From a virus (taxonomy: Duplodnaviria; Caudoviricetes): a DNA stretch of 61,494 nt. The stretch covers positions 1-61,494 of the IMG/VR virus record IMGVR_UViG_3300030099_003489; one strand, 5' to 3'. Below are positions 28,962 through 54,130 of this stretch, piece by piece. Positions within the stretch are counted from its first letter, which is position 1, and each line of letters opens with the position of its first letter. The translations under genes and the position numbers were made by a program. The notes under the pieces were generated by a model. The model worked only from the letters and a program-made list of their open reading frames with translations, searched no databases and had not been told where the DNA came from.

Positions 28962-30410
28962 TCACGCACTCGTAATGTTGGTTATCTTTCCTTGTCCCTT
29001 GAAGAAGGAGCAACCAGTCTCACCGATGGTTCGGTACATGGCTTGGTTTCCTAGTTTCTTGACACCGAATGGGTTTCCACTATCAATACCATCCTCAAAG
29101 TACTGAGTAGGCTTGAGCATTGCAAGCCATAGATGGTCTGTATCTAGCATCAGTATGTCGCTTAGTTTGTTAGCGGCAGACTGTCCGGTCTGTGGCATAT
29201 CCTTGCATGGGATTAGGGGTATTCCGTAGTACGAAGCAACCCTGAAACCAACCTCAGAACCCTTGACACCCTTCACACCACCGTGTGTTGGTACTATTTC
29301 TGCGGTATCCATGAACCTCTCCTGAGACTGTAGTAGGTCCGAGATGTGCTGAATAGTATCATATCCAGTTAGCATAACCTTCGGGTTTCCACCGTTTAGC
29401 CTTATGTCGCGGATTACTGTGTTCAGAAGAGAGAGAGTTAGTGTCCTTCCCTGTGTTGAACCATATCCATCACCGAAGTTTACAACTGCATCCATGAAAG
29501 ATGGAGTTGCGGCATATCCACCGTCATTTCCAGACTGTAGGAACCTGTTTCCACTCTGTGTTTGAGTAGAGTCACCAGTTCTGTCATGAGAACCATAGAG
29601 CAGAGATAGTTTACTGTTTATGGTAGTATCAGTCGCGGAACTGTTGGTATCTTTGTCAAGGTGTATCATTCCACCTGCGTTAGCCATAGCCGCCAACTCA
29701 GCAGACGAAGAAACAACCTTCATGAGAGAAGTATAGTTCTTCTCCATCCCGTCAATACCGTTTATGTCGTAGTCCTCAAGAGGCATTAGTAGCATCTTGT
29801 TCTGCATCTCAGCATGGTGCTTTGCCATATCCTCACGGACAATAGCCCTAACATCACCTACACCGTCATCCATCTGTGCCATTTCTAGACCTAGTTCTGT
29901 GAACTCAAACATGTGAGCAACAGTCTTCGGACTCATGAACAGTTTGGTGTACTCTGGAGCAAGTGGCCTGAATCCATCGGACTCTAGAGCCGCATTCTCA
30001 CCAACACCACCAATGTGGTCTGGTCTGATGTTCTTTGCGTTAGCAGAAGTAAACGTAGAATCAAGAGCCTCGGTTCCTGTGGTAATCTTTGCACCTGAAC
30101 CACCTGCTGGCCTTGACTTTAGTATTCTCCAACCAGAAGAAGTGTAAGGTCGCTTAGAGAGCATTGCAAAAGCATTTACCTCTCTGTTTAGCATAGACCA
30201 AACTTTCTGTCCATACAGAACACCGTAAAGGTCGTTCAAACCTTCTGCGCCCGAAAACGCCGCAGACGTTACATCGTGTCCTATGCCATCGTAGTTTCCA
30301 CCGAAACCTCCAACGACACCTCCAGCCTTAAGAAGCGTATTACCGCTTCCCCCGCCAATCCCATAGGTTGCGGCTTCCAAATCTCTCATTGTCTTAATGT
30401 ATCCACTCAT
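28962..30410 (-). CDS. Major capsid protein (HK97-like)
   Basis: 482 aa directly after the protease; HK97-type segments (KTVAHMFEFTEL, NGGNPKVMLTG, YYGIPLIPCKDMP, DILMLDTDHL). Confidence 0.85.
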   Translation of the reverse strand: MSGYIKTMRDLEAATYGIGGGSGNTLLKAGGVVGGFGGNYDGIGHDVTSAAFSGAEGLNDLYGVLYGQKVWSMLNREVNAFAMLSKRPYTSSGWRILKSRPAGGSGAKITTGTEALDSTFTSANAKNIRPDHIGGVGENAALESDGFRPLAPEYTKLFMSPKTVAHMFEFTELGLEMAQMDDGVGDVRAIVREDMAKHHAEMQNKMLLMPLEDYDINGIDGMEKNYTSLMKVVSSSAELAAMANAGGMIHLDKDTNSSATDTTINSKLSLLYGSHDRTGDSTQTQSGNRFLQSGNDGGYAATPSFMDAVVNFGDGYGSTQGRTLTLSLLNTVIRDIRLNGGNPKVMLTGYDTIQHISDLLQSQERFMDTAEIVPTHGGVKGVKGSEVGFRVASYYGIPLIPCKDMPQTGQSAANKLSDILMLDTDHLWLAMLKPTQYFEDGIDSGNPFGVKKLGNQAMYRTIGETGCSFFKGQGKITNITSA

Positions 30411-30415
30411 TTACT

Positions 30416-31696
30416 TCACCTTCCCTCCGTAATTCTGTGTATGTCATCCCATGACATATCAGCCGCTTCATCTAGCGTAGTTGGGAATCCTTCTGGAAGT
30501 TCAAAAGAAACTTCCTGTGTCTTGCGAATCTCACCATCATTTTCTGATAGTGACTTTCGGAGTTCTGCAAACTCTTCCTTTAGTAGAGAAACTTCGCTCC
30601 TTGCATCGTATTCTGCTCTCTCAGCAGATTCCTTTCTTACTTCTCTCTCAGCCTCAAACCTCTCAGCAAACTGCTTTTGCAGGTCATCGTATGCAATCTT
30701 CTCCAATTGCTCTGCCTTGAAAGCCTCGTAAGCCTTCTCCACATTCTCTACAGATAAGTTCAGAGTTGAGAAGTCTCCATCCTCAAATCCCTTTAGGGCA
30801 ATTGTGGATGCCGCAGGGGTTCCGCCACTTACGACTTCTGTACCTGCTTCATTCCTTGCACCTTCTTCATCAAGAGCCGCATTCTTGTCTGATGCGCCTC
30901 CTTCTCCTTTCTTATCATCGTCAGAATCATCTTTGTCCTCTTTGGCAGTATAGTCAGCATACTCCATGCTTTCCTTGTCCTCATAGTTCATGTTCATCTC
31001 ACGGTCATCTTTTTCAGGCATTTCCATGATGTCTTTCTCATCCATACGACTCATTTCCTTTGCCATCTCATCATTTCCTTCCTTACGAATCTCATTGACT
31101 TGACCAATCAAATCATTGAGTTCAGTAAGGGCTTTTTCCAGTTTTTCACTCATTTGTCTTTCACCTCCAACATCTTGTTTCAAAATGTCGAATTTTGCTT
31201 CGGGGTTAATTCCTTTTTCACAGATTGTTACTTCATGTAGTTCTAACTTGTCTATTTCGTTGTACGTTCCTAGACTGTCAGATGTTCTGCTTTTCTTAGA
31301 AATTGCTTGCCCTCCTATACTAAATGACCTAAGTGTCCCTTTTCGGATACCTCTAGAAATCTCCTTTGCCTTTTCTATGTCATCTCTCATCTTAATGACG
31401 ACATAGAAACCAACGTCATCTACACCAGTCTTGTGTAGTATACCGTTGTTATCTCGGTAGTTTTCTATTACCTCCCCGACTTGAACATTTGAATGGTTAG
31501 ACATTACATTCCTGTATTTTTGTTCTCCCATGTATTTGTTAACTGCATCATCTAGTGCTTCTAGTGTAATCAGGTCGTTCTGCTTGTCAACAACCTCTAT
31601 TGATGCATACCCTCCGATTACTAGTCCACTTGCTGATTTTAGTATGTCAAAAAATCCTTCACCACTCTTCAATAGTATTCCCTCGGAGGCTAACAC
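30416..31696 (-). CDS. Prohead protease fused to scaffold
   Basis: N-terminal HK97-type protease (GYASIEVVDKQND, MSNH, SFSIGG, ELHEVTICEKGINPEA) followed by an acidic coiled-coil C-terminus. Confidence 0.9.
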   Translation of the reverse strand: MLASEGILLKSGEGFFDILKSASGLVIGGYASIEVVDKQNDLITLEALDDAVNKYMGEQKYRNVMSNHSNVQVGEVIENYRDNNGILHKTGVDDVGFYVVIKMRDDIEKAKEISRGIRKGTLRSFSIGGQAISKKSRTSDSLGTYNEIDKLELHEVTICEKGINPEAKFDILKQDVGGERQMSEKLEKALTELNDLIGQVNEIRKEGNDEMAKEMSRMDEKDIMEMPEKDDREMNMNYEDKESMEYADYTAKEDKDDSDDDKKGEGGASDKNAALDEEGARNEAGTEVVSGGTPAASTIALKGFEDGDFSTLNLSVENVEKAYEAFKAEQLEKIAYDDLQKQFAERFEAEREVRKESAERAEYDARSEVSLLKEEFAELRKSLSENDGEIRKTQEVSFELPEGFPTTLDEAADMSWDDIHRITEGR

Positions 31697-34303: not shown

Positions 34304-34312
34304 TCATTTCAC

Positions 34313-34528
34313 TCAGCCTTCGTTAATTTCTCCGGCTTGGGCTTTATTTGCATCTTTGGGAATCTTAGTCTTCTCTTCTTGCGCCTTTGGCCTCTTGACC
34401 TTTACAATCTCAGATTCATCCTTCACCATCATGCCATTATTCTCTCCTAGTTCAACTAGGAGTTCCTTTGCCTTAGCGATAGCCGCTTCTGCTAATTCCA
34501 ACTTTTTTGTGTTCTTTCCATAATCCAT
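34313..34528 (-). CDS. Hypothetical protein
   Basis: 71-aa coupled ORF. Confidence 0.6.
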   Translation of the reverse strand: MDYGKNTKKLELAEAAIAKAKELLVELGENNGMMVKDESEIVKVKRPKAQEEKTKIPKDANKAQAGEINEG

Positions 34529-34532
34529 CTTA

Positions 34533-34763
34533 TCACTTCAAATTTCCAGCCATCTTGTGTATTTCATCCCAAGACATTTCTCCTACGGTATCAGTAGTAA
34601 TGCCACTCGTAGGAGTGTTCTCTATATGTGGCTTTGGGCTTTCATGTACCACAAACCCTGACTTCATCAACAAGTTATCCTTGTTGTATACCGCTTGTTC
34701 TAGATTCTTCACCTTGTCTACTAGTTCCTTTAGTAGAATTAACATTTCATTTTGTTCTGTCAT
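34533..34763 (-). CDS. Small coiled-coil protein ending in scaffold-like MSWDEIHKM
   Basis: C-terminus matches the protease/scaffold C-terminus MSWDDIHRI. Confidence 0.7.
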   Translation of the reverse strand: MTEQNEMLILLKELVDKVKNLEQAVYNKDNLLMKSGFVVHESPKPHIENTPTSGITTDTVGEMSWDEIHKMAGNLK

Positions 34764-34772: not shown

Positions 34773-34976
34773 TCATTGTAGTAGTACGCTTACTTTTCCT
34801 AGTGCATCGCTAAGTTCTTTCATTTCCTCAGTGGACATTTCATCCAAATCGGTATCTTCCATCTTCATTTCCATGTCTTCTAGTTCCCGAATAACGTTAG
34901 CAATATCCACTTTTAAGTGACTTCTAGCGCGTTCTCTGGTTCCATCATATTCTTTCAAAATACCTTCCCAAGTCAT
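34773..34976 (-). CDS. W-tag small protein (MTWEGILK)
   Basis: Start reassigned to ATG 34976 after GTGATAAG. Confidence 0.65.
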   Translation of the reverse strand: MTWEGILKEYDGTRERARSHLKVDIANVIRELEDMEMKMEDTDLDEMSTEEMKELSDALGKVSVLLQ

Positions 34977-34980: not shown

Positions 34981-35157
34981 TCACTCATATTCAAACCTCT
35001 TGTTTAACGCATCTTTTCTTCTGTCACAGCCACAGTCTTTACCTGTCTTTTCTGAGATATAATCAACTGCCTTCTTTATCCCTGTAGCAGTAGTAATTCT
35101 CTCGATGGTATCTCCTAAGCCTTTGTCGTCTTTTAGAAGTGCATCTTTCCAACTCAT
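34981..35157 (-). CDS. W-tag small protein, 58 aa (not in ORF track)
   Basis: MSWKDALLKDDKGLGDTIERITTATGIKKAV...KDCGCDRRKDALNKRFEYE; ATGA overlap with upstream gene. Confidence 0.75.
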   Translation of the reverse strand: MSWKDALLKDDKGLGDTIERITTATGIKKAVDYISEKTGKDCGCDRRKDALNKRFEYE

Positions 35158-35478: not shown

Positions 35479-35736
35479 TCACTTCAATGCGTTACTTAGC
35501 ATACCAATAGCACCCAAAACATCGTCTAACGGACTATATCCGTATCCAACGTTAGTTTCTGTTGTTGATTTAATCCCTTCGGATTTCATCTCCTGTAAAA
35601 TAGACTCTAGACCTCTTAATGCGGTTTCTATTTTCTTTAGTAAATCTGGAGATAATGGAGCCGCTTGACCTGCTTCACGCATAGCCGCAAAGTTCGGGTC
35701 ACTTTCTATCTTAGGCGGTACTCTCTGCTTAGTCAT
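35479..35736 (-). CDS. Hypothetical protein
   Basis: 85-aa coupled ORF. Confidence 0.6.
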   Translation of the reverse strand: MTKQRVPPKIESDPNFAAMREAGQAAPLSPDLLKKIETALRGLESILQEMKSEGIKSTTETNVGYGYSPLDDVLGAIGMLSNALK

Positions 35737-37502
35737 GTTTCTGTGCCTCGTTGTCTACTTTGCCAATTTTCTGGGTTTTCCAAAATAGTCCTAACTCTTT
35801 CAGATAACAAACCAGCAAATGAGTCTTCTAAATCAGCGTATGACATGTTATTCTGCCTCAAAATACTCGGAGAAACTTGTATATGATTTGACGGTTCTAG
35901 GTTCTCATTGATGTATTTTGCAATATATGCTAGTTTACCATAGAAATCTCCGACTTTCTGTAACGACTCATCTGCCATGTCCTTGCCTTCTTGAGTGATT
36001 TTGTTTTGTTGCACATCTCTATCAGTAGGCATCACATCTTTCTTGTTTCTATATGTCTTCTCAGTTAGGAATAGTAGTTGTTGTATATGTCTATGTGAAT
36101 CTGCACCAGTAATGTAATTTACATCATCATCCGGGTCATTACTTTCTAGAATTCTCTCTAATTCTATCATGTCCCTCTCCAATTTAGGAACCTCACTTCT
36201 TGCAGAGCGTATTCTCTCAAATGTGTCTGTCATCGGTTCTCTGACCTTTTGAGGCAACATGATGTCCTTTTCCCTTAGTATAGTTCTCAATATCTGCCAA
36301 CCGTTCTGCCCATTGGAGTATGTGTCTAACAATACCTTCCTATCCTTTTTGTCTAGTTTGATTCCTTTGAAAACAGGAATTCTGTTTCCTTCGCTGTCCA
36401 TAGCGGGACTATCACCATATTCCGTCTTTCTCTTTACTGCATTCAGATATTGTTCCTTCTTGCTTCCCCTGAAATACTTCCTTATCAATATCTTCCAAAC
36501 GGTCTGGTAACTTTGTCCTGTGGCCTTTGTCTCCAGAAGTGTTCTCATCAAACTAGGTCCATCTCTTTGTTGCAAGGTGCGAGAATCTTCCATCTCACCG
36601 GATTCTGTTCGGTCTATACTATAGATTACCTTACCAAATATCTGTTGTGCCTTCTTCAATTTCTCCAGTTCTTCTTTTAATTTAGGTAGGATTCTCTCTC
36701 TTCCCTGTACCTCTATTCCTTGAAACATAGGAGACTGATAGGTTTTAATTCGCTCTTGAGTATCTCTTATCTTATCCTGTATCTCACGATTTAGTGGCCT
36801 TTGTAATCGCCTAACAGTATCCCACTTTGTGACAGTTTGACTAAGAGTATCATTTAATCTAAAATCTAGCATTGTTCTTCTTGCTTGTTTCAACTCGTTT
36901 TTTTGACTCTCGGTAACTTTGCTTTCTAGCATATCATACAGGCTCATTTCCTGTCCATCTTCTTCTGGTTCTTGCTCTGGTCTTTCTCTAGGTTGACTAG
37001 GAGGATTCATTTCTTGTATTGTTTCTAACTGTTTTATTGCATCTCTCACCGCTAACAGATTAGCATACTTTTGTTTTTGTGTTTTGCTTAACTTACCACT
37101 AGATATTTTTTCCTCGTAGAATGCATCTGGTTTTCTGAATCTAGATACTTCCTTCTTGTAATAATCTAGTCTTTTTTCAACTAATGCTAATACTCTTTCT
37201 AATGGTACTGACGTTGAGACTCTTTCTTTAGTTCCTAAAGGTTTAGTTCGTAGTCTTGTCGAAGATGACATTGGGGTTTCAAAAAACTCCTCCCTCTTCT
37301 TATCATAGAATTTCTGTTCTTCTTTTGTTCTCTTTTTACTGGGAACCCTTGTTATCTTTGGCTTTGGATTTTCTTTCTCTTTTTCTTCCTTTGTTCTCTT
37401 GACGTATTCTTCACTACGCTTTCTTCGTCCCTCCAAATACTCGTCAAGTTCCTTGTACTTGAGGATATCAAAGAAGGAGTCCTCTAAAACCATGTATCTC
37501 AC
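35733..37502 (-). CDS. Large charged hypothetical protein (FFDILK near N-terminus)
   Basis: 589-aa K/E/R-rich helical ORF. Confidence 0.7.
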   Translation of the reverse strand: MRYMVLEDSFFDILKYKELDEYLEGRRKRSEEYVKRTKEEKEKENPKPKITRVPSKKRTKEEQKFYDKKREEFFETPMSSSTRLRTKPLGTKERVSTSVPLERVLALVEKRLDYYKKEVSRFRKPDAFYEEKISSGKLSKTQKQKYANLLAVRDAIKQLETIQEMNPPSQPRERPEQEPEEDGQEMSLYDMLESKVTESQKNELKQARRTMLDFRLNDTLSQTVTKWDTVRRLQRPLNREIQDKIRDTQERIKTYQSPMFQGIEVQGRERILPKLKEELEKLKKAQQIFGKVIYSIDRTESGEMEDSRTLQQRDGPSLMRTLLETKATGQSYQTVWKILIRKYFRGSKKEQYLNAVKRKTEYGDSPAMDSEGNRIPVFKGIKLDKKDRKVLLDTYSNGQNGWQILRTILREKDIMLPQKVREPMTDTFERIRSARSEVPKLERDMIELERILESNDPDDDVNYITGADSHRHIQQLLFLTEKTYRNKKDVMPTDRDVQQNKITQEGKDMADESLQKVGDFYGKLAYIAKYINENLEPSNHIQVSPSILRQNNMSYADLEDSFAGLLSERVRTILENPENWQSRQRGTET

Positions 37503-37727
37503 TTAATAAAACGGTATATTTTCTCGATTGCCCTTTTTCTTTCTTGGGTTTATTCCAACGTTAGGGACTTCTTTGGGTGCTACTCTCTTTTCCTCGGTCT
37601 TCTGTGGAACTCCAATTGCAAAGTCCTTGCTAACTGTAATGTTAGAGTTATTTGCCCGTCTTTCTTCCATTCTTGCTTTATTGAGTTCTGCTCTCAATTC
37701 TTTTACTCCTCTCTTTTCTTCACTCAT
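37503..37727 (-). CDS. Basic hypothetical protein
   Basis: 74-aa coupled ORF. Confidence 0.6.
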   Translation of the reverse strand: MSEEKRGVKELRAELNKARMEERRANNSNITVSKDFAIGVPQKTEEKRVAPKEVPNVGINPRKKKGNRENIPFY

Positions 37728-37839
37728 CTTTTTTCCTCCTTAGTTCTTGGAAATCCTTTGCGTCAATGTCTCCATCATCATCCACATCAAGATTTTTCTT
37801 TTGCTTTTCTGTCAACTTCAATATTTTTTGCCATTCCAT
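37720..37839 (-). CDS. W-tag micro-protein with EF-hand-like loop, 39 aa (not in ORF track)
   Basis: MEWQKILKLTEKQKKNLDVDDDGDIDAKDFQELRRKKDE; GGAGGAAGG upstream. Confidence 0.7.
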   Translation of the reverse strand: MEWQKILKLTEKQKKNLDVDDDGDIDAKDFQELRRKKDE

Positions 37840-45230: not shown

Positions 45231-46989
45231 TCAGTATTCCTCCTTCATCTTCTAACCATTTCTTAGTAGGTGTACCAACAGTCTTAGATTCCTCTACCAT
45301 AACTTCTTTAATAGCGTTTATGAAAGACTTACGAATTCTATCATAGTTTTCTTTTACTCCCTTTAGTAAAGTATCAATGCCATCACTAAATGTAGGTTGT
45401 CTTCTCATGTTAGACATAACCATGTTCAGAGAATTAGTACCAGTATAGGCATACTCTATTTCACGTAATAGTTCTATTACATCTTCGACTCTCAATCTGT
45501 TAATATCGTATTGCTCATCTTTTAGAAGATGAAACAGGGTTTTTAGTTTCAATGATGCAACAGTTGACCTTTCATCACCATACTTCATTGAAAGCAAATC
45601 TTTCATCTTACCCGCCCTGAAAAATAAATCCTGTAGTATCTCCGTGCTATCTGGTGTTGCTCTCCTTGTGCCATCATTCAATTCCTTCATGTTAGAGAAT
45701 GCCGCCCTTCTTGTCTCATCCTTGAAGAAATTTCTAACATCCTTCGTGCTAGTTAGATTTCCAATTGGCAAGGCACTACGAATGTCTGCATCTGCTTGTC
45801 TTCTTTCATCTCTCCTATTGGGGTCATAATGTATGGTTTGCCAATCATTCAGCGAGTTCCACTTGTCACTAGATACCTTAGATTTTCCAGTTACATCAAA
45901 GGACTTTATCCAATTATTCCAATTTTGCTTGAGTTTTCCGGGATTACCATCTTTATCTTCATCGTTCTCTATTTCCTCAAAGAACTTACTTAGGTTTCTT
46001 GTTCTACCTACGGTTGGTATAGCCTTTGAACCAGTTTTTCTATAACCCGACTGTACCTCTACAAGTTCGTTGAATTTTTCTTGTACATTAGCAGGAACTT
46101 CAGCAGAAGTAGTACCACTCATTGCCCTTTTCTTTCTTCGCTCCTCATCACCTAATACACCGATTTCCTTAGTTGCTTCTTTTCCCGCATCGGTTATCTT
46201 TCTGAATGCTAAGTCCCGTATTGCCATTGCTTGTTGCGTTGTTCCCTTTACCTCGATATTGAAATCATCACTATCTAAATCGAAGTCCTCCTTATCTAGA
46301 ATGTAGTTTAACGCAGGTGGCATTCTGATTGTAGATTTCTGCGTAATAGACTTCAACGGCTGATTCTCAAAGGTCTTAGGGAACAGTTCTCTTCTTTGCT
46401 TTCCAGAAAACTGCTTATCTAGAATAGTAAATTTGAAGAATTTTATGGCTTTTTCTGCTGTGATTCTATCTGGACTAGTCTGAGGCTCCATCTCTGATGG
46501 AGGTTTGAAATCTAAAACTTGTCCTACTACACTAGAATGTAATGAAGGGTTATCCCTAACGTAAGCATATATTTTTTCTTTCAAGTTTAACTGTCTAATC
46601 ATATTCTTGAATTTTCTCCTATTCTCAAAGGTCTGCGCTCTCTGAGTATTCTTACCAGCAACTAGGTCTTCTAACGGTTGGTGTTCTCCTTCTAGATACC
46701 GATTGATGAATTGAGCAACTCTATCTCTGTTGATATCTCTTTGACGATATCTTCCTTCATCTTCCAATTCCGTCAATACCTGTTTCGCTCTAGCGATGAT
46801 TGGTGAGTACATTTGCTCATCAAGCCCAGTTGAAGGCCAATCAAACTCCACAATTTTCTTCATTGCGGTTTTTACTGGTCGTGCTTTTCTTTGATTGTTC
46901 TTAACATCCTGAATTAGTTTGTCCTTTATTTCATCCGTAGCAACATCTGTTGTGTTTGGATAACTTGCTTTCAAGATTTCATGCCACAT
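45208..46989 (-). CDS. W-tag large protein (MWHEILKA)
   Basis: 593-aa ORF with GGTGA RBS. Confidence 0.7.
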   Translation of the reverse strand: MWHEILKASYPNTTDVATDEIKDKLIQDVKNNQRKARPVKTAMKKIVEFDWPSTGLDEQMYSPIIARAKQVLTELEDEGRYRQRDINRDRVAQFINRYLEGEHQPLEDLVAGKNTQRAQTFENRRKFKNMIRQLNLKEKIYAYVRDNPSLHSSVVGQVLDFKPPSEMEPQTSPDRITAEKAIKFFKFTILDKQFSGKQRRELFPKTFENQPLKSITQKSTIRMPPALNYILDKEDFDLDSDDFNIEVKGTTQQAMAIRDLAFRKITDAGKEATKEIGVLGDEERRKKRAMSGTTSAEVPANVQEKFNELVEVQSGYRKTGSKAIPTVGRTRNLSKFFEEIENDEDKDGNPGKLKQNWNNWIKSFDVTGKSKVSSDKWNSLNDWQTIHYDPNRRDERRQADADIRSALPIGNLTSTKDVRNFFKDETRRAAFSNMKELNDGTRRATPDSTEILQDLFFRAGKMKDLLSMKYGDERSTVASLKLKTLFHLLKDEQYDINRLRVEDVIELLREIEYAYTGTNSLNMVMSNMRRQPTFSDGIDTLLKGVKENYDRIRKSFINAIKEVMVEESKTVGTPTKKWLEDEGGILNDNSETE

Positions 46990-46993: not shown

Positions 46994-47155
46994 TCACCCT
47001 ATCACTTGTCTGAAACCACATTCAGAACATTCATACTTTGCCCTTCCTGTTTTTTTCGCTCTGTTAGAATAACTTCCCGGTTTCATACTAAAAGTTCCTT
47101 TGGCCCCACACTTAGGACAATTCAATCCTTTTCTTACTCCCTCAAACCAACTCAT
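46994..47155 (-). CDS. W-tag Zn-ribbon micro-protein, 53 aa (not in ORF track)
   Basis: MSWFEGVRKGLNCPKCG...YECSECGFRQVIG; ATGA overlap. Confidence 0.75.
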   Translation of the reverse strand: MSWFEGVRKGLNCPKCGAKGTFSMKPGSYSNRAKKTGRAKYECSECGFRQVIG

Positions 47156-47415
47156 TCTCTCTTCTCCTCTAATTGAGGATGAAACTTCAAAGTCACCTTC
47201 TTAGCATCCTTCTTGATAGATTTACCATCAACTAGAACCTCAACTGGATATGGCTTATGCTTGTCATACCAATATGCAACTTCATAACCTCCATTTTTCA
47301 AAAGTTCAACAAGTAGTCCTCTATCATATTCTTTATCTTCTGCTTGTAGGACTTTCTGAGTTCCTCTTGGTAGAGTTAAATCAGATTTTTTCTTAATGAT
47401 AGATTCCCAACTCAT
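47152..47415 (-). CDS. W-tag protein (MSWESIIKK)
   Basis: 87-aa coupled ORF. Confidence 0.7.
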   Translation of the reverse strand: MSWESIIKKKSDLTLPRGTQKVLQAEDKEYDRGLLVELLKNGGYEVAYWYDKHKPYPVEVLVDGKSIKKDAKKVTLKFHPQLEEKRE

Positions 47416-47897
47416 TGCATCTTCTCCTTCATTTTCTCAGCGTGTTGTATTCTCTCTTCGTTTGAATAGAACTGTGCAGTAGTTTCCATTAATTGATTAA
47501 ATTGTTCAGGTGAAGCGTAGTTAACCCCATCACTCGTAAAGTCATCATAACCGACAAACTCTAGTTCTCCAATCAATTCATCTATTGCTTCCTTAACTTC
47601 TTTATCCGAAATCAAAGTATAGTCTAACTTACCCATACCCGCCATTGTTTTTTCAGGGTCATCTTTCAAGTCAATGTCTTCTTCGGTTTCTTTTGCTTGC
47701 TTTATTGTAGGTTTTCCTATATCTTTCATAGGTCTTTTTGTATTGGCCTCCGAACCGTAGACAGCATAAACTACGGCTTGATTAAAGTAAGGTGTCCAGT
47801 AGCCCGTATCTTCTTCTGATTGGCTTCCTTGATATAAAAAGGGAGTTTCTGTTCCACCAACGGAATATGGCTTCTTCAATATGGTTTGCCAACTCAT
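47412..47897 (-). CDS. W-tag protein (start reassigned to MSWQTILKK)
   Basis: ATGA overlap with upstream stop at 47894. Confidence 0.7.
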   Translation of the reverse strand: MSWQTILKKPYSVGGTETPFLYQGSQSEEDTGYWTPYFNQAVVYAVYGSEANTKRPMKDIGKPTIKQAKETEEDIDLKDDPEKTMAGMGKLDYTLISDKEVKEAIDELIGELEFVGYDDFTSDGVNYASPEQFNQLMETTAQFYSNEERIQHAEKMKEKMQ

Positions 47898-48577
47898 TGC
47901 ATCTTTTCCTCCATTTGCTTTCTGATATCTAGCCAAACATCCGGATGGTTTTGTGCTAGAACCTCCTTGATAACTTGCATCTGATGCACGACAATTGTGT
48001 CTTGTCTCTTATGCACCAGTTTACCCTTGAACTCCATTAGATATTTCAAACTCTCTCTAACCTCTTTCGCTAGTTTGGTAAGTGAGTCTATTGCCTTTGG
48101 ACTCATATCATCATCATTCATTAGAACGTCCAACTTGGAATTCAAGTGACCTATGTTGTGACTTAGGGTATCTATCTCATTGACTTCCCTAGTTGCAATC
48201 AAGTTCGCCGCAGATTGTTGTACTAGGGGTTGAAGATGCTTCTTCGTATGACGTAGAACCTGTTGCTCGGAACAACCCAACATCTCAGAAACCTCAGTTG
48301 CGGAAATCTCACCTTCGTACAATGACTTCTCTAGTTGCAATCTGTTAGGATGCGTACATAGAACACACCTAGTGTTTGAGGAATCAACATAGTGTCCCAT
48401 GTGGTTTCTCTGGTGTTTGGCAGAAGTTCCACTAGGCCAACCCATCTGCCTGTCTAATTCCTCACAAGAGATGTTCATATCCTCGATGTCCTTCTCAAAT
48501 ATCTCCCTGTCCTCATGTGTGCAAAGTCTGCATCTCTTTCTGATAATCATGACGAAGCCTCCAGTATCTTCTTCCAT
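47894..48577 (-). CDS. Tandem Zn-finger/HTH protein, terminase small subunit candidate
   Basis: Two repeats of RCxLCTH...HTH...HxxxH followed by coiled coil; lies upstream of terL; true start is probably MIIRK. Confidence 0.5.
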   Translation of the reverse strand: MEEDTGGFVMIIRKRCRLCTHEDREIFEKDIEDMNISCEELDRQMGWPSGTSAKHQRNHMGHYVDSSNTRCVLCTHPNRLQLEKSLYEGEISATEVSEMLGCSEQQVLRHTKKHLQPLVQQSAANLIATREVNEIDTLSHNIGHLNSKLDVLMNDDDMSPKAIDSLTKLAKEVRESLKYLMEFKGKLVHKRQDTIVVHQMQVIKEVLAQNHPDVWLDIRKQMEEKMQ

Positions 48578-49311
48578 TGTTCTCCCATTCTCTTTTGTTC
48601 AGGGTCTGTAGTAGAAGATTGTAGGACATCAACCCATTCTGCAATCTTTGCTTTGTTATTGATAGGTTTACCCTCCATCATATTCTGTTGGGCTTCTGTT
48701 AGCATCATGTTTACTTTTGCCGCTATTACCGCTTGTGCTTCTGGATACGCAGAACTTGATGGTGGTTTGTAATTAACCGCGCTTTGAATTACTGGTTGTA
48801 TTGCTTCTCCTGCTACGTCCTTTACCTTTTTTGCTCCCGACACTACTTTGTCTTTAGCACCCTGTATTTTTTGTTGTAGGTTAGTGACTTCTCCATATCC
48901 TTCTCTATCACGTAATCTTGGGTTGCTAATGTCCGGCTTTCCTTCTAATCTTCTTCGTTTGAGGTCTGGACTATCTCCAGTATCGTATTTGTCATACTCA
49001 TCTAGTATTTCTTGGTCTGTTCTCTTTTTCTTCTTGCCTGATGTTTCCTTTGTGTTACCTTCATCTCTCTCTATTATAGGACCGAAAGTACTTGATAGAT
49101 TACCCAATGATGCTTCTCTTCGTTTAGTTCGCTTTTCAGCAAATTCCGCATTTTCCTCATTTTCCTCTGCTAACCTTCTTTCAGCCTCAGACACCCCATC
49201 GTCTACCTGCTGTTCTACATCCCTACGTATATTCTCATCAAGAAGGTCATCCTCATCCTCATTCTTGAGAACTCTAACCCAAGAGCCATCATCCCAAGAA
49301 GAAAAAGACAT
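48547..49311 (-). CDS. Charged hypothetical protein (SWVRVLK near N-terminus, WKKIL at C-terminus)
   Basis: 254-aa ORF. Confidence 0.65.
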   Translation of the reverse strand: MSFSSWDDGSWVRVLKNEDEDDLLDENIRRDVEQQVDDGVSEAERRLAEENEENAEFAEKRTKRREASLGNLSSTFGPIIERDEGNTKETSGKKKKRTDQEILDEYDKYDTGDSPDLKRRRLEGKPDISNPRLRDREGYGEVTNLQQKIQGAKDKVVSGAKKVKDVAGEAIQPVIQSAVNYKPPSSSAYPEAQAVIAAKVNMMLTEAQQNMMEGKPINNKAKIAEWVDVLQSSTTDPEQKRMGEQWKKILEASS

Positions 49312-49315: not shown

Positions 49316-49492
49316 CTATCCCTCCTGAAACCTTCTGCATTGTCCTCTATTGTCTACTGTAACTTCAGGTAATGTGCAATTTCTGTTTTCATTCTGTATG
49401 CAAGACGTAGCCTCACACAATGATATCTTGCATTCTGCCTCTCCTACTGGAAACATAGGCCCGACTTTTCTAATCCTATCTTCCCAAGTCAT
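49316..49492 (-). CDS. W-tag protein with DUF1540-like Cys motif
   Basis: MTWEDRIRK...CEATSCIQNENRNC...V.V....CRRF. Confidence 0.65.
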   Translation of the reverse strand: MTWEDRIRKVGPMFPVGEAECKISLCEATSCIQNENRNCTLPEVTVDNRGQCRRFQEG

Positions 49493-49496: not shown

Positions 49497-49853
49497 TCAC
49501 CTAAACTCAAAATATACTATTGGCGTTTCATCTGATTTATCCTTATAGACACTATCGGGTATAAAATTACCAAAAGCAAATGCTTTTCCAGATACATCTG
49601 TCTGAATTTCATCGTCAAACACAGTACCATCGTCAAAAATAATCCTTGCTACTCCTACACCCATTTCTCTAATGTGATTTTCTCTAGGGACTACTTGAAA
49701 ACTCCAATTAATCATACATTGTCCATCTCTTTCAGTTCCATCTTTTTCTTCCCATCTTAAAATTTCTACTCTACTTTCAAAACCCTCTATAGTGACTACT
49801 CCACCGTTTTGCTTTACCTCTAGACTTTTTCTAACTATATCTTCCCAAGTCAT
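49497..49853 (-). CDS. W-tag protein (MTWEDIVRKS)
   Basis: 118-aa ORF flanked by 29-bp direct repeats. Confidence 0.7.
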   Translation of the reverse strand: MTWEDIVRKSLEVKQNGGVVTIEGFESRVEILRWEEKDGTERDGQCMINWSFQVVPRENHIREMGVGVARIIFDDGTVFDDEIQTDVSGKAFAFGNFIPDSVYKDKSDETPIVYFEFR

Positions 49854-49857: not shown

Positions 49858-50112
49858 TCACCTAAATAATTCTGCAAGAATTTCAAGATTGTCAATCATC
49901 TCTCTATCAGCAATTTTTACCAATCTTTTTTCATCATCTTCTATGCGTTCCAATACTGATTCAGTAAGTAATTCATGCCCCTCAACTACTGCCGGGGAAA
50001 AACCTTCTTCAATAGCCATCTTTATTTCTCTTACAATTTCAGCCGCCAACATTAACTTGTTGAAGCCTTCATTACTTCCAAAAGAATCCTTGAGTAAATT
50101 TTCCCAACTCAT
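49858..50112 (-). CDS. W-tag protein (MSWENLLKD)
   Basis: 84-aa coupled ORF. Confidence 0.7.
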   Translation of the reverse strand: MSWENLLKDSFGSNEGFNKLMLAAEIVREIKMAIEEGFSPAVVEGHELLTESVLERIEDDEKRLVKIADREMIDNLEILAELFR

Positions 50113-50917: not shown

Positions 50918-51139
50918 TTACCTATCCAAATCATCTAAAAAATCTAAATTAATATGGCCGTAGCCTACTTTCTTCAACGCATTACGAATGAAAGATTTTT
51001 TATTTTTAATTGAACCCTTGCTTGAAGCGAATTCATGCAATAGTTTAGCGTAGTGTCTTGCTTTACCTAAACTATCTTGCATTCCTAATTTATCCCATTG
51101 AGGATATTTTTTTGATTTGACTATTTCCTGCCAACTCAT
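50918..51139 (-). CDS. W-tag protein (MSWQEIVKS)
   Basis: 73-aa coupled ORF. Confidence 0.7.
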   Translation of the reverse strand: MSWQEIVKSKKYPQWDKLGMQDSLGKARHYAKLLHEFASSKGSIKNKKSFIRNALKKVGYGHINLDFLDDLDR

Positions 51140-51462
51140 TCTTCATCACTTAGTTTATCTTTCCTCGGTTTAATAGTATAATTACCTATGAATTTTTCAT
51201 CAGCCCGCTTACCACGTGCATCACCATATTTGGCTTCATTCTCTAACTCATCGTCTATTTTATCCAATGCCCTTCGGATATTTTCCATAAGATAGTCTGT
51301 GTTCACTGGCAGGTCATCTAAATCAGCCAATTTCTTTTCTAATTCGTTAAAATGATAGTATACTTCTTTTAAGCGCGTAGGTGTCAACATTGTAGCATAT
51401 CTACTCATCTCCGATGGCGGTCCCTGATATTTTGCTTTCTTTATTTCTTTTTTCCAACTCAT
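51136..51462 (-). CDS. W-tag protein (MSWKKEIKK)
   Basis: 108-aa coupled ORF. Confidence 0.7.
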   Translation of the reverse strand: MSWKKEIKKAKYQGPPSEMSRYATMLTPTRLKEVYYHFNELEKKLADLDDLPVNTDYLMENIRRALDKIDDELENEAKYGDARGKRADEKFIGNYTIKPRKDKLSDEE

Positions 51463-51641
51463 TCTTTCATCGCCTCAATTTTAGCCTTCAATTTTTCAAG
51501 TTTATCTAGCGTTTTTTGATGTATTGAGTTAGGAACTTTCCCGTATGCGTTAACAGGAATTTTGTATCCATCTACCGTTATATGTCTAACGACCTTCTCA
51601 GGGTCAGGCTCTTGTTTGTTCAGTTTTTCTTTCCAACTCAT
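51459..51641 (-). CDS. W-tag protein (MSWKEKLNK)
   Basis: 60-aa coupled ORF. Confidence 0.65.
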   Translation of the reverse strand: MSWKEKLNKQEPDPEKVVRHITVDGYKIPVNAYGKVPNSIHQKTLDKLEKLKAKIEAMKE

Positions 51642-51736
51642 TTTTCATCACTCCAATTCCGATAACAGTAGGGGCAACCTGTTGGCGCACCTACGTTATT
51701 ATTATCTAAACTTATTCCAGCACCACAACAACTCAT
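51638..51736 (-). CDS. Cys-rich micro-peptide, 32 aa (not in ORF track)
   Basis: MSCCGAGISLDNNNVGAPTGCPYCYRNWSDEK; ATGA overlaps at both ends fill the gap exactly. Confidence 0.55.
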   Translation of the reverse strand: MSCCGAGISLDNNNVGAPTGCPYCYRNWSDEK

Positions 51737-52905
51737 CTTACCAACACCGTTCTCCAATCCATCTTAGTAGTTGTATCTGGTGCTTCCTCAACCATTCCTT
51801 GTGTCTGTGCCGTAACCTCTTGCTCTTCGTTCCTCTGGAAACCTGCCATATTAGCAATCTGATTGATTTGGTTCTTGGGTATTGCTAGGTACACGGACCT
51901 TACACCTACTGGATAATCTGCATTGACTGATTCCATTATTCTCAACATCAATTGGCTATCTCCCTCATCCTGTAGGTCTACTTTGTTCTTCAAGAAGAAA
52001 TTCCTAGCCTTAGTCGCTGAGAAGTTACCTGCCGAAGTTCGATAACTACTATCCTGTACTGCTCTTGTGAACCAATCTCTAACAGGTTCTAACTCATTGA
52101 ATATTGCCTGTGCCGCACCTAGACCCTCAATGGCTATTGGTGTAGATTCAAGAACATCCATGACTCCTTCAACTTCAAGTGCATCAGTAACGATAGTCAA
52201 TAGAGAATCTCCAACACCCTCAAACAACTTGTCTCCATCACCATACAATGCTTGCCACATAGGGGGTTCTGCCGTATCTGGTTGGTCGCTGTACCAATCA
52301 GAATTCACAGCATCCATCTCAGCCTCTTTTCTCTTTATCTCTCTCCTATAGTCAACATAGGTCTGAGTTCTGTAATGCCCATAGATTACACCCTTTCTGG
52401 TTCTGTGTCTGGGATTCCCGTCTTTGTCAACTAGAACCTCGCCATCTTTTTCCATAGGACTTGGATTCCAACCTTTGATGTCACTTTGCCAACTCATGTT
52501 TCTGGGGTTCATCTTACTACCATCTGCACCCTCATTATCCATCACGTTCTTTACTGACTGTAAGAGTTCCTTAGTCTGTGGTCCCATGTCTCCCCCGAAA
52601 ATGGTTTCACAAGCAGGTAGCAGATACGAGCCGCCCTGCCCCGACTTCTTCTGCTCTGCTTCTCTTGCTTCTCCCCCCTTACCATATACGATTCTCTTAC
52701 TGTTGCCATGTTTCAGAAGACTGTCCCAAAGACTAGTTTCCTCTCTCATTACACCTATGTCCTCACCAGACAATTCCTCACAACGGTCCTTCCAATTGTC
52801 ATACCTCTCCTTGACATTACTGTAGTCAAAGTTAACTTCAACATTGTATGGACCAACACGATAGGTATTGTCTTTCTTAACCATGATTAATTCCCAAGCC
52901 CCCAC
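51733..52905 (-). CDS. Hypothetical protein (390 aa; C-terminal MDWRTVLVR)
   Basis: Long ORF in operon. Confidence 0.7.
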   Translation of the reverse strand: MGAWELIMVKKDNTYRVGPYNVEVNFDYSNVKERYDNWKDRCEELSGEDIGVMREETSLWDSLLKHGNSKRIVYGKGGEAREAEQKKSGQGGSYLLPACETIFGGDMGPQTKELLQSVKNVMDNEGADGSKMNPRNMSWQSDIKGWNPSPMEKDGEVLVDKDGNPRHRTRKGVIYGHYRTQTYVDYRREIKRKEAEMDAVNSDWYSDQPDTAEPPMWQALYGDGDKLFEGVGDSLLTIVTDALEVEGVMDVLESTPIAIEGLGAAQAIFNELEPVRDWFTRAVQDSSYRTSAGNFSATKARNFFLKNKVDLQDEGDSQLMLRIMESVNADYPVGVRSVYLAIPKNQINQIANMAGFQRNEEQEVTAQTQGMVEEAPDTTTKMDWRTVLVR

Positions 52906-53624
52906 TCTATCTCAATTTCATGTGTCCAATCCTTTGGTTCTGTAGAATTATGGCAGTCAATTATGAATTCATCCACTTCATTGACATTAATCCTATAATT
53001 ACCTGAGTTTACGCTATTTTTTATTTTCAGCGCATCAGGTTTTGTGGCTTCTGTAGTGTCAACTCTCAATCTTATGTCCAAAGGAGAATAATCCCTGTCT
53101 GTCATTCTGTAAGACTTTGGGCCACCTTGCTCATAGCCTTGACCCGGATTATATTTTTCACCAAAATTATTATGCTCATAATCTATGTTAAAATCATAAG
53201 TCATACTTGTGATAGTCGTATAGACATCAATTGGGGCCGTCTGACCTTTTCCACTAGTATCTATTGTAACATTGCCTTTCAGAACAAGATTAGTGATAGT
53301 CGTATCGTCTTCTACGGAGTCAAATCTGCTAGGTTTATCTTCACCGGGTTCCTCTCTATACCTTCTACTCCATACTTCTGGAATATTTTTCATCTCAACA
53401 CTAAAGCGCGGTTTATCCATGTCAAATTCTACTGGTTTACCCTTCTTGTCTTCTAAGTCATCAAAGATGTCTCTCTTCTTCACCTTATGCTCAAACAAGT
53501 AGTCTGATGCATCATCAACGGAACTCCACTCATGCTCAGACAAATCATAATTATCAGCAACTTCCTCAAGGTCATCTATAGCCTCATCTACAGGCTCTTT
53601 CTTGAACAAATCAAACCATTTCAT
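52887..53624 (-). CDS. W-tag protein (MKWFDLFKK)
   Basis: 245-aa acidic ORF. Confidence 0.7.
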   Translation of the reverse strand: MKWFDLFKKEPVDEAIDDLEEVADNYDLSEHEWSSVDDASDYLFEHKVKKRDIFDDLEDKKGKPVEFDMDKPRFSVEMKNIPEVWSRRYREEPGEDKPSRFDSVEDDTTITNLVLKGNVTIDTSGKGQTAPIDVYTTITSMTYDFNIDYEHNNFGEKYNPGQGYEQGGPKSYRMTDRDYSPLDIRLRVDTTEATKPDALKIKNSVNSGNYRINVNEVDEFIIDCHNSTEPKDWTHEIEIEWGLGN

Positions 53625-54130
53625 CGTCTTGTCACTCTCGCTCCACTAACACTATCACCATCATCTAAATCTGGACTGGTTAATATTCTTTCTACATAAT
53701 CCATATTTAGAGGACTTGGAAAAGTCAATTCTCCTTCTCTTCCTCTAAAGTAAGGGTTATTTGGAAATTCACTCTTTCTCTGGTCATACAGTTCCATAAT
53801 ATTTCTTTGCATCGCTTTCCAATCAAAGCCCATCAACCATTCTCTGACTCCCTTTGCAATTGCACTATTGGGGATTCTCTTGTCCGTCACTAAATTGGTT
53901 ATTTTTCTCGTATAATCATCTAAATTCTCTCTGTATTCCTTAACTGATGTGTAAATTGGACCCCATTCTTCAGGTACGGATGAAAATTCCTTAGTGCGTG
54001 AATCTCTTTTTGGTGTAAACACTAATTTCTCTCCAAAATTAACCATTGAGTTAAGATAATCGCCTATATCGTTTAACACATTGAATAATTCTAAGGATGA
54101 GTCTACTTTCACTATGTCAAACCATCCCAT
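53621..54130 (-). CDS. W-tag protein (MGWFDIVK), first gene of the late operon
   Basis: 169-aa ORF. Confidence 0.7.
   Translation of the reverse strand: MGWFDIVKVDSSLELFNVLNDIGDYLNSMVNFGEKLVFTPKRDSRTKEFSSVPEEWGPIYTSVKEYRENLDDYTRKITNLVTDKRIPNSAIAKGVREWLMGFDWKAMQRNIMELYDQRKSEFPNNPYFRGREGELTFPSPLNMDYVERILTSPDLDDGDSVSGARVTRR

What the first reader, a model, noticed from the sequence alone, without database searches (positions are those of the whole stretch)
28962..54130. N-terminal W-x-x-I-L-K tag on about 15 unrelated proteins: candidate capsid cargo-loading and cleavage signal
Seen, as protein starts: MGWFDIVK (54130), MKWFDLFK (53624), MSWKEKLNK, MSWKKEIKK, MSWQEIVKS, MSWENLLKD, MTWEDIVRKS, MTWEDRIRK, MSWQTILKK, MSWESIIKK, MSWFEGVRK, MWHEILKA, MEWQKILK, MWQEILKS, MSWKDALLKD, MTWEGILKE. 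The bodies behind the tag are unrelated. The protease/scaffold ends in MSWDDIHR and has ILLKS, FFDILKS and KFDILKQ at its domain borders; the MCP has TLLKA near its N-terminus. None of the tail or early genes starts this way. Established: T4 internal proteins carry an N-terminal capsid-targeting sequence removed by the prohead protease, HK97 protease cleaves after Lys, and scaffold C-termini bind the shell interior. Inference: the tag is a scaffold-mimicking helix that loads a variable protein payload into the head and is then clipped after K, so the payload is delivered with the DNA.
Basis: partly seen in the sequence, partly recalled or inferred. Interest (0 to 1): 0.85.

Follow-up and report, generated by a model that had tools for sequence, protein, structure and literature searches.

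The report
Shared head-loading tag on magrovirus proteins
Sixteen otherwise unrelated genes beside the head-assembly genes of this ocean archaeal virus start with the same eight-residue peptide, which looks like the virus's own scaffold tail joined to its likely head-protease cutting site, so it is probably a removable label that loads a fast-changing set of proteins into the capsid, though neither loading nor cutting has been shown.

Summary
All 16 listed gene starts exist. W sits at residue 2 or 3 in 16 of 50 genes (binomial 7e-16). The contig is a magrovirus, a tailed virus of marine group II archaea.

The tag M-[S/T]-W-x-[D/E/N]-[I/V]-[L/I]-K is family-wide: 117 ORF starts in 80 related loci. 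It is selected at the amino-acid level. It joins conserved bodies through linkers of variable length. It is confined to the head block: 16 of 31 genes against 0 of 19 MCP and tail genes, and none in the replication arms of three relatives.

Its first half matches the conserved scaffold C-terminus, MSWxDIH. Its last residues, [I/L]-L-K, match invariant sites flanking the protease domain and one in the MCP N-terminus. ILK is depleted inside tagged proteins, 0 seen against 4.3 expected, but not in tail or replication proteins.

Best reading (0.55): a capsid-targeting tag that the protease removes, working like the T4 CTS. Packaging, cleavage and delivery are all unproven.

This scan reached the same reading on at least nine other magrovirus windows. 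I found nothing in print.

The parts
53621..54130 (-). tagged gene, 169 aa, MGWFDIVK
   Evidence: no Pfam/PHROG hit
52887..53624 (-). tagged gene, 245 aa, MKWFDLFK (weak tag)
51459..51641 (-). tagged gene, 60 aa, MSWKEKLNK (degenerate tag)
51136..51462 (-). tagged gene, 108 aa, MSWKKEIKK
50918..51139 (-). tagged gene, 73 aa, MSWQEIVK
49858..50112 (-). tagged gene, 84 aa, MSWENLLK
49497..49853 (-). tagged gene, 118 aa, MTWEDIVRK
49316..49492 (-). tagged gene, 58 aa, MTWEDRIRK, Cys-rich (weak DUF1540 hit)
47412..47897 (-). tagged gene, 161 aa, MSWQTILKK (best PSSM score)
47152..47415 (-). tagged gene, 87 aa, MSWESIIKK
46994..47155 (-). tagged gene, 53 aa zinc ribbon, MSWFEGVRK
45208..46989 (-). 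tagged gene, 593 aa, MWHEILKA; largest candidate cargo, no family found
37720..37839 (-). tagged gene, 39 aa, MEWQKILK, with Ca-binding dockerin/EF-hand-like motif; just after portal
   Evidence: 41-aa counterparts in L005, L009, L013
35154..35474 (-). tagged gene, 106 aa, MWQEILKS; conserved family in which tag and body are joined by a linker of 0-39 residues
   Evidence: alignment A2
34981..35157 (-). tagged gene, 58 aa, MSWKDALLK
   Evidence: tagged homologue in G2
34773..34976 (-). tagged gene, 67 aa, MTWEGILK
35733..37493 (-). 586-aa post-portal protein with F-variant of the tag at residues 6-12 (SFFDILK); the same position in L074/L045 is held by larger proteins that begin MSWEDILK/MDWEDILK (no BLAST similarity to the 586-aa protein was found)
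48547..49311 (-). 254-aa protein with offset tag (SWVRVLK, residues 10-16) and W-K-K-I-L near its C-terminus
34533..34763 (-). 76-aa helical protein; C-terminus MSWDEIHK (nt 34554-34577) copies the scaffold tail; N-terminus has LILLK; conserved in G1 and G2
30416..31696 (-). S78 prohead protease fused to scaffold (426 aa)
   Evidence: PF04586 35.8 bits, above cut-off 21; phrog_23555; long helix 316-397 and terminal helices 408-412, 416-425 in the model
31637..31654 (-). FFDILK, residues 15-20, just before the protease domain: candidate cut site
   Evidence: F16, I18, K20 invariant in 38 sequences; F.ILK in 63 of 63
31178..31192 (-). FDILK, residues 169-173, at the end of the protease domain before a variable linker: candidate cut site
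   Evidence: EA[KR]FD[IV]LK in 63 of 63 sequences
30434..30457 (-). MSWDDIHR, residues 414-421, scaffold C-terminal motif that the tag resembles
   Evidence: W416 invariant
28962..30410 (-). major capsid protein (482 aa)
   Evidence: PF17236, phrog_24667; 919 relatives
30327..30338 (-). TLLK, MCP residues 25-28: candidate maturation cut site
   Evidence: GN.[LV][LI]K[SA] present in all 80 relatives (79 LLK, 1 LIK, 1 VLK)
30114..30134 (-). GWRILKS, MCP residues 93-99: second conserved tag-like motif, role unknown
   Evidence: W94, R95, L97 invariant

Best explanation
The eight-residue leader M-[S/T]-W-x-[D/E/N]-[I/V]-[L/I]-K is a capsid-targeting sequence that is later removed. Its first half (MSWxDI) copies the conserved C-terminal motif of the protease/scaffold fusion. 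In tailed viruses that end of the scaffold docks on the inner face of the capsid shell, so tagged proteins would be carried into the assembling procapsid. Its last residues ([I/L]-L-K) copy the sites where the S78 prohead protease is inferred to cut itself (before and after its catalytic domain) and the MCP (after K28). The protease would therefore free the cargo after K8. The cargo is a fast-changing set of 7 to 16 mostly small soluble proteins per genome, and it would leave the head with the DNA.

Shown here: the motif, its amino-acid-level selection, its modularity, its restriction to the head module, its likeness to the scaffold tail and to the conserved [I/L]LK sites, and ILK avoidance inside cargo.

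Inferred: docking on the MCP, cleavage, packaging and ejection.
For: 1. The motif is real and family-wide. There are 16 starts in the window, 117 ORF-start hits on the coding strand of 80 related loci against 1 hit on the other strand, and at least 135 DNA-pattern stretches in IMG/VR.

2. Selection acts on the amino acids. I, L and K codons are mixed (ATA 52, ATT 20, ATC 5; six Leu codons; AAA 70, AAG 38), and conservation stops at K8.

3. The tag also occurs where no translation starts. The scaffold C-terminus MSW[GSD]DIH is conserved in relatives, with Ser coded by both codon families (TCT 15, TCA 13, TCG 6, AGT 4). The 76-aa protein ends in MSWDEIHK. W..[ILV][ILVH] occurs at 14.7 per 1000 residues in N-termini, 4.0 in C-termini and 0.57 inside proteins.

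4. The tag is modular. In the 22-member family of the 106-aa protein, the tag is separated from the conserved body by 0 to 39 residues.

5. The tag is confined to the head block. 16 of 31 head-block genes carry it against 0 of 19 MCP and tail genes (Fisher 8.7e-5). In complete relatives G1 and G2, and in G8, all tags lie on the structural strand upstream of the ligase and protease. None lies in a replication arm. One doubtful 47-aa ORF in G1 is the only exception.

6. The candidate cut sites are conserved. F.ILK before the S78 domain and EA[KR]FD[IV]LK at its end occur in 63 of 63 proteases, each followed by variable sequence. GN.[LV][LI]K[SA] occurs in 80 of 80 MCPs.

7. ILK is avoided in tagged bodies. 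With one protein per cluster (70 clusters, 9,842 residues), ILK is 0 seen against 4.3 expected (P 0.012) and [IL]LK is 4 against 11.1 (P 0.0125). The reverse motif and the [IL]LE control are not depleted. Tail ORFs show 5 against 3.5 and replication ORFs 6 against 4.7.

8. The scaffold assignment fits the model: a long helix at 316-397 (pLDDT 66-89) and two short terminal helices.

9. There are working precedents. The T4 CTS loads diverse internal proteins (PMC3012670, passages). The N-terminal 30 residues of P1 DarB direct a reporter into capsids (PMC9024508, abstract and passages).
Against: There is no direct evidence for binding, packaging, cleavage or ejection.

The AlphaFold models of the MCP (mean pLDDT 50.3) and of the protease domain (below 50) are too poor to locate a docking site or to judge whether the candidate cut sites are exposed.

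The Ser codon at tag position 2 is AGT in 74 of 76 cases. Background use is 24%, and untagged genes with Ser at position 2 use AGT 47% of the time. Part of the signal is therefore at nucleotide level, from start context or from common descent of the 5' ends.

The ILK depletion is modest (P about 0.012), and its three motif tests overlap.

Several tags are degenerate (MSWKEKLNK, MSWFEGVRK, MTWEDRIRK) and lack the I/L pair.

The scaffold tail has H-[N/K/R] where the tag has L-K, so the likeness covers only five or six residues.

The tagged proteins have no common charge (pI 4.4 to 9.8) and almost no known domains (6 weak hits in 93 proteins), so nothing about their bodies says they belong in a virion.

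The cultured relative HVTV-1 has no such tag in the 21 head-region proteins I read, so no virion proteome can be carried over.

In T4 the CTS is thought to bind the scaffolding core rather than the shell (PMC3012670 passage), so the partner here is uncertain.
Confidence: 0.55

Rival explanations
1. The leader is only a substrate site. The prohead protease, or another protease, removes eight residues to activate or inactivate these proteins. The peptide has no role in carrying them into the capsid.
For: The tag shares [I/L]-L-K with the invariant sites flanking the protease domain and in the MCP. ILK is avoided inside tagged proteins.
Against: It does not explain why M-S-W, which lies upstream of the shared cut-site core, is conserved. 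It also does not explain why that part recurs at the uncleavable C-termini of the scaffold and of the 76-aa protein. S78 proteases are known to act inside procapsids (recalled), so substrates must get there anyway.
Confidence: 0.15
2. The leader is a docking peptide for a partner other than the capsid shell. Candidates are the scaffold core (as proposed for T4), the portal, the 586-aa post-portal protein, or the virus-encoded chaperonin that some magroviruses carry.
For: The tag is terminal, modular and helix-compatible. T4 internal proteins are said to be encapsidated into the scaffolding core (PMC3012670 passage). Magroviruses encode thermosome genes (PMC5434244 figure legend).
Against: A scaffold or portal partner would still give capsid loading, so this rival differs mainly in the contact. 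A chaperonin partner would not explain the restriction to the head block or the [I/L]LK ending. No thermosome gene lies in this window.
Confidence: 0.15
3. The conservation is a nucleic-acid feature: a start-region element for translation, or a junction used for recombinational shuffling of gene cassettes. The peptide would be a by-product.
For: ATG-AGT-TGG is nearly fixed, with AGT in 74 of 76 Ser codons. The Shine-Dalgarno signal is stronger than in control genes (0.6-0.76 against 0.2-0.42 bits). Tagged genes turn over fast: 2 of 16 have homologues in G1 or G2, against 5 of 10 untagged neighbours.
Against: Codons 4 to 8 vary synonymously while the residues are kept. The same peptide occurs at C-termini with other Ser codons. 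There is no long conserved sequence upstream of the ATG (at most 0.76 bits). Conservative replacements follow amino-acid chemistry: I/V/L, K/R, D/E/N. Shuffling at the shared 5' end may well occur in addition.
Confidence: 0.05
4. The shared N-terminus is a relic of common descent. On this view one gene family has diverged beyond recognition, and the peptide has no present function.
For: Some relatives hold tandem paralogues that carry the tag: G2 at 33682-35188, and three genes in G8.
Against: The 16 bodies in the window share nothing detectable (best E 0.11). Their lengths run from 39 to 593 aa and they include zinc ribbons and Ca-binding motifs. Eight residues staying fixed while everything else decays requires selection on the peptide.
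Confidence: 0.03

Closest known systems
Capsid targeting sequence (CTS) of phage T4 internal proteins (PMC3012670 passages; Mullaney and Black 1996 seen only as a reference)
   Same: A short N-terminal peptide is shared by otherwise diverse proteins. The diverse proteins form a hypervariable set. The peptide directs them into the prohead and is removed by the prohead protease. Its end coincides with the protease's cutting motif (this last point is recalled).
   Different: This is an archaeal virus with an HK97-type S78 protease fused to the scaffold, not the T4 gp21 type. I saw no sequence likeness to the T4 peptide as I recall it, and this was not tested. Here the tag copies the scaffold's own C-terminal motif, which is not described for T4. 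Function is unproven here.
N-terminal packaging signal of phage P1 DarB and the Dar internal proteins (PMC9024508 abstract and passages; PMC12810830 passages)
   Same: An N-terminal signal is sufficient to load a protein into the capsid. The cargo is anti-defence proteins co-ejected with the DNA. DarA is clipped by the prohead protease.
   Different: In P1 the signal is about 30 residues long and is not a motif shared by many proteins. Loading there is stepwise and depends on other Dar proteins.
C-terminal capsid-targeting tail of the HK97 maturation protease, and scaffold C-termini of P22, P2 gpO and lambda Nu3 (Duda, Oh and Hendrix 2013: title seen in a reference list; content recalled; the paper is not held)
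   Same: A short terminal segment of the protease or scaffold docks on the inside of an HK97-fold shell and suffices to encapsidate passengers. The MSWxDIH tail here sits in the same place on a protease/scaffold fusion.
   Different: In those systems the signal is not copied onto a family of other genes.
Encapsulin cargo-loading peptides (recalled)
   Same: A short terminal peptide on unrelated cargo enzymes binds the interior of an HK97-fold shell.
   Different: Encapsulins are cellular compartments with no protease release and no DNA. Their peptide is usually C-terminal and has a different motif.

Membership tests
T4-type capsid targeting sequence (functional class) | Short N-terminal peptide shared by otherwise unrelated proteins of one virus | tested here: met
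   16 genes in the window with no BLAST likeness between bodies; 70 clusters among 145 tagged proteins of relatives
T4-type capsid targeting sequence (functional class) | Peptide ends at a prohead-protease cleavage site and is removed | tested here: inconclusive
   The tag ends in [I/L]-L-K, like the invariant sites flanking the S78 domain and in the MCP N-terminus. ILK is depleted in bodies. No cleavage data exist.
T4-type capsid targeting sequence (functional class) | Peptide is sufficient to encapsidate a foreign protein; cargo is found in virions and ejected | not testable with these tools
   The host is uncultured and I know of no virion proteome. The one complex prediction gave no verdict.
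T4-type capsid targeting sequence (homology) | Descent from the T4 system (T4-type protease and core proteins) | tested here: not met
   The protease matches Pfam S78 (PF04586, HK97 type) and is fused to a scaffold. The head genes are nearest to haloarchaeal tailed viruses.
Peptidase S78 prohead protease | Profile match above the curated cut-off, encoded next to the MCP | tested here: met
   PF04586: 35.8 bits against cut-off 21, residues 26-174. The gene ends 6 nt before the MCP start.
Magroviruses (viruses of marine group II archaea) | Halovirus-like MCP, portal and protease; ATP-dependent DNA ligase and an endonuclease embedded in the structural module; about 100-kb genomes | tested here: met
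   Portal is 28% identical to HCTV-5 and HVTV-1. The ligase lies at 31736-34303 between portal and protease, and an HNH-like ORF lies between terminase and portal. Complete relatives are 95.6 and 98.4 kb. The description is in PMC5434244 (passages). Host assignment is taken from that paper and was not tested.
Signal peptide or membrane anchor | Hydrophobic core after the N-terminus | tested here: not met
   The residues after the tag are polar or charged in all 16 proteins.

The most novel reading that the evidence does not exclude
Magroviruses run a portable capsid-loading code. The code is an eight-residue address made of the scaffold's own docking motif fused to the head protease's cutting site. 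Any protein that acquires it at its N-terminus is loaded into the head, released inside and injected with the genome. The near-fixed ATG-AGT-TGG 5' end also serves as a recombination handle. Through it, the 7 to 16 cargo genes per genome are swapped between viruses as an arsenal against Poseidoniales defences.
Probability: 0.3. Interest if true: 0.8.

Novelty: new variant of a known kind. Interest (0 to 1): 0.62.

Why it matters
Magroviruses are among the most abundant archaeal viruses of the surface ocean, and their hosts cannot be grown. Most of their genes therefore have no assigned role. If the tag is a loading label, it gives a location and a timing to a third or more of the unknown genes on the structural arm: inside the head, delivered at the first moment of infection. 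It would also point to them as the likely host-takeover or anti-defence set.

It would be the first capsid-targeting code described in an archaeal virus. It would also be an unusually clear one, because the address appears to be built from two parts with recognisable sources: the scaffold tail and the protease site.

The idea can be tested without the host, by co-expressing MCP, protease/scaffold and a tagged reporter. A short self-removing loading tag for an HK97-fold shell is also of practical use for protein packaging.

Tried and rejected
Complex prediction (collected): MCP (alignment A1, 54 rows) with residues 1-35 of the 106-aa tagged protein (alignment A2). The result was no verdict (score 0.00, mark 0.32, controls not run). 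It counts neither for nor against binding.

AlphaFold2 of the MCP: mean pLDDT 50.3, and residues 1-99 are below 50. This is too poor for a fold search or for judging whether TLLK or GWRILKS is exposed, so no fold search was run.

AlphaFold2 of the protease/scaffold: the protease domain is below 50. Only the helical scaffold part is usable.

ESM Atlas look-up of the 593-aa tagged protein: no usable hit.

Pfam and PHROGs on the window's 50 proteins, and Pfam on 93 tagged proteins of relatives chosen by hand from 129 distinct ones: almost nothing for the tagged genes.

HVTV-1 as an experimental anchor: it has no tag, and its protease C-terminus is different.

tRNA and Rfam scans: nothing found.

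Charge of cargo: no trend towards basic, DNA-binding proteins.

Considered and rejected: a signal peptide or membrane anchor (no hydrophobic stretch) and a PCNA-type interaction motif (replication genes are untagged).

The 184.7-kb IMG/VR contig with tag matches looked like a different, larger virus. It holds two MCP copies about 91.5 kb apart, so it is most likely two magrovirus genomes joined.

G008 has tag matches but no MCP match. It is a magrovirus contig that ends just after the portal.

The information-content table includes loci selected by my DNA pattern, so I use only its upstream part.

Full report
WHAT THE WINDOW IS

The window is a whole 61,494-base virus record. From about 54,130 down to base 3, every gene lies on the minus strand.

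Profile searches name the following genes:
- large terminase, 41004-42443
- an HNH-like endonuclease, 39643-41004
- portal, 37937-39643
- an ATP-dependent DNA ligase, 31736-34303
- an S78 prohead protease with a long C-terminal extension, 30416-31696
- the major capsid protein (MCP), 28962-30410
- a tail module ending in proteins of 2,366 and more than 2,015 residues

The portal is 28% identical to those of haloarchaeal viruses HCTV-5 and HVTV-1. The MCP has more than 599 relatives in IMG/VR at about 60% identity or better, on contigs of up to about 100 kb. A ligase and an endonuclease embedded in a halovirus-like structural module is the published signature of magroviruses, the viruses assigned to marine group II archaea (PMC5434244, passages read). 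I take the host from that paper.

All 16 quoted N-termini are at ATG starts preceded by Shine-Dalgarno-like GGAGG or GGTGAT.
- A loose regex finds 15 matches in six frames, all on the coding strand and 14 of them at ORF starts. Shuffled DNA gives a mean of 0.92 and residue-shuffled proteins give 0.26.
- W sits at residue 2 or 3 in 16 of 50 genes, against a W frequency of 0.94% (P 7e-16).
- I built a PSSM from 100 tags of relatives and scored it with the M ignored. Its eight best scores among 17,229 positions all fall at residue 1 of tagged genes.
- The bodies share nothing detectable by BLAST (best E 0.11). They range from 39 to 593 residues and from pI 4.4 to 9.8.

Only KFDILK is at a domain border.

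THE TAG IS A FAMILY-WIDE, AMINO-ACID-LEVEL, MODULAR FEATURE

Across 80 related loci (957 kb) the regex hits split as follows:
- 117 ORF starts with at least 35 codons downstream
- 13 short ORF starts, several of them a spurious 22-codon frame
- 16 internal sites on the coding strand
- 1 site on the other strand

The consensus is M-S-W-[Q/E/K]-[D/N/E]-[I/V/T]-[L/I]-K. Conservation stops dead after K8.

Codon use argues for selection on the peptide. In 111 distinct tag sites from the MCP-anchored loci and the window, Ile, Leu and Lys codons are mixed roughly as in the background. Ser at position 2 is the exception. It is AGT in 74 of 76 cases, against 24% background use and 47% for Ser at position 2 of untagged genes. 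Part of the signal is therefore at nucleotide level.

The upstream DNA holds a somewhat stronger Shine-Dalgarno signal than control genes do, and no long conserved junction (upstream part only).

In the one tagged family with many members in my loci (the 106-aa protein, 22 sequences), the tag is joined to the conserved body by a linker of 0 to 39 residues. That is what a portable address looks like.

WHERE THE TAG OCCURS

In the window, 16 of 31 genes from 54130 down to the protease carry the tag, against 0 of 19 from the MCP onward (Fisher 8.7e-5). I fetched two complete relatives (98.4 and 95.6 kb) and one 76-kb contig. In all three, the tagged genes lie on the structural strand, either upstream of the terminase or between the portal and the ligase. 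The tail modules and the replication arms have none. The only exception is one doubtful 47-codon ORF in G1.

Tagged genes turn over quickly. Only 2 of the 16 have BLAST homologues in G1 or G2, against 5 of 10 untagged genes in the same blocks.

WHAT THE TAG RESEMBLES

Two things, and both lie in the head-maturation genes.

First, the protease/scaffold ends in MSWDDIHR. In relatives this terminal motif is M-S-W-[G/S/D]-[D/E]-I-H, nearly always with M and S kept although no start codon is needed there. Its Ser is coded by both codon families: TCT 15, TCA 13, TCG 6, AGT 4. A conserved 76-aa helical protein (34533-34763) ends in the same way, MSWDEIHK. The model of the protease/scaffold is poor in the protease domain. 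It does give a long confident helix at 316-397 and two short terminal helices, which fits a scaffold.

Second, the tag's ending recurs at three invariant places:
- F-x-I-L-K-[S/A]-[D/E], just before the S78 domain
- E-A-[K/R]-F-D-[I/V]-L-K at the end of that domain, followed by a variable linker (both in 63 of 63 sequences)
- G-N-x-[L/V]-[L/I]-K-[S/A] at MCP residues 23-29 (80 of 80, LLK in 79)

Sites that bracket a protease domain and sit near the MCP N-terminus are where maturation cuts are expected. The 586-aa protein after the portal starts with SFFDILK. In two relatives the protein at that position starts with MSWEDILK or MDWEDILK.

A NEW INDIRECT TEST

If tagged proteins meet a protease that cuts at I-L-K, they should avoid that triplet. 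With one protein per BLAST cluster (70 clusters, 9,842 residues, first 10 residues removed):
- ILK is seen 0 times against 4.3 in residue shuffles (P 0.012)
- [IL]LK is seen 4 times against 11.1 (P 0.0125)
- the reverse motif (5 against 4.3) and [IL]LE (12 against 11.3) are not depleted

Tail-module ORFs show ILK 5 against 3.5, and replication-arm ORFs show 6 against 4.7. The effect is modest and the motif tests overlap, but it goes the way the model predicts.

MECHANISM PROPOSED

The leader combines the scaffold's docking motif with the protease's cutting site. Tagged proteins ride into the procapsid as the scaffold does, and they are freed after K8 when the protease fires. This is the logic of the T4 capsid targeting sequence (PMC3012670, passages) and of the P1 DarB signal (PMC9024508, abstract and passages). 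Here it sits in an archaeal virus with an HK97-type protease. That HK97-type proteases cut after Lys, and that protease and scaffold C-termini dock on the shell, is recalled knowledge. The key paper (Duda et al. 2013) is not held.

Docking, cleavage, packaging and ejection are all inferences.

WHAT SPEAKS AGAINST, AND WHAT FAILED

- There are no direct data.
- The MCP model was too poor to use.
- The AGT bias shows a nucleotide-level component.
- Some tags are degenerate.
- The scaffold tail differs from the tag at positions 7 and 8.
- The cargo has no recognisable functions: 6 weak Pfam hits in 93 proteins and no Atlas hit.
- HVTV-1 lacks the tag.
- The partner could be the scaffold core or the portal rather than the shell.

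KNOWN OR NEW

Term searches inside three magrovirus papers found no mention of an N-terminal motif, cargo or capsid targeting. No paper in the library combines 'capsid targeting sequence' with 'archaeal virus'.

Within this scan, the same tag and the same reading were recorded on at least nine other magrovirus windows. One of those reports was later marked 'part of it fell', without saying which part. I formed my reading before seeing them.

I class the finding as a new variant of a known kind of system.

Noticed in passing
window 34533-34763 (-): A conserved 76-aa helical protein has a C-terminus (MSWDEIHK) that copies the scaffold tail and an N-terminus that holds LILLK. It may be a second, small scaffold-like or head-internal protein. 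Homologues exist in G1 and G2 (about 60% identity).
   Followed up: partly
window 30114-30134 (-), MCP residues 93-99: GWRILKS is a second tag-like motif inside the MCP, with W94, R95 and L97 invariant in 54 sequences. It could be a second cut site, which would make a roughly 98-residue propeptide, or simply part of the fold. The model was too poor to tell.
   Followed up: partly
window 51733-52884 (-): An untagged 383-aa protein, conserved in G1 and G2, carries MSWQSDIK internally at residue 130 and ends in KMDWRTVLVR.
   Followed up: no
window 50112-50915 (-): This is the only internal regex hit in the window: MWKAVLQK at residue 134 of a 267-aa ORF (nt 50519). It could be a nested start or a domain border.
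   Followed up: no
window 31736-34303 (-): An 855-aa ATP-dependent DNA ligase is embedded between the portal and the protease. This is a known magrovirus feature (PMC5434244).
   Followed up: partly
window 60714-61493 (+): An open-ended ORF on the other strand has Walker A (GAGTGKT) and DEAQD motifs and looks like a UvrD-type helicase. It probably starts the replication arm. The 54.1-60.7 kb stretch between the arms holds only small untagged ORFs, no tRNA and no Rfam match.
   Followed up: partly
window 3-13485 (-): Two giant tail-end proteins (2,366 aa and more than 2,015 aa, the latter running off the contig) have no Pfam match. Counterparts in G1 and G2 reach 3,262 and 3,720 aa.
   Followed up: no
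G006 (IMG/VR contig of 184,733 bases, reached through L117): It holds two MCP copies about 91.5 kb apart. It is most likely two magrovirus genomes joined in assembly, or a concatemer, rather than a larger virus.
   Followed up: partly
G008 58648-60374 (loci L230-L231): Three neighbouring genes end in the same ...MQERLQ just before a downstream MSW start. A similar ...EKMQ ending precedes two tagged starts in the window (47897, 47415). These repeated gene junctions could serve cassette shuffling.
   Followed up: partly
G2 33682-35188; G8 56099-57372 and 67706-68392: Tandem or dispersed paralogues carry the tag (for example MWFDILKNEMR / MTWFNILKNEMR). In relatives, therefore, not all tagged bodies are unrelated.
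   Followed up: no
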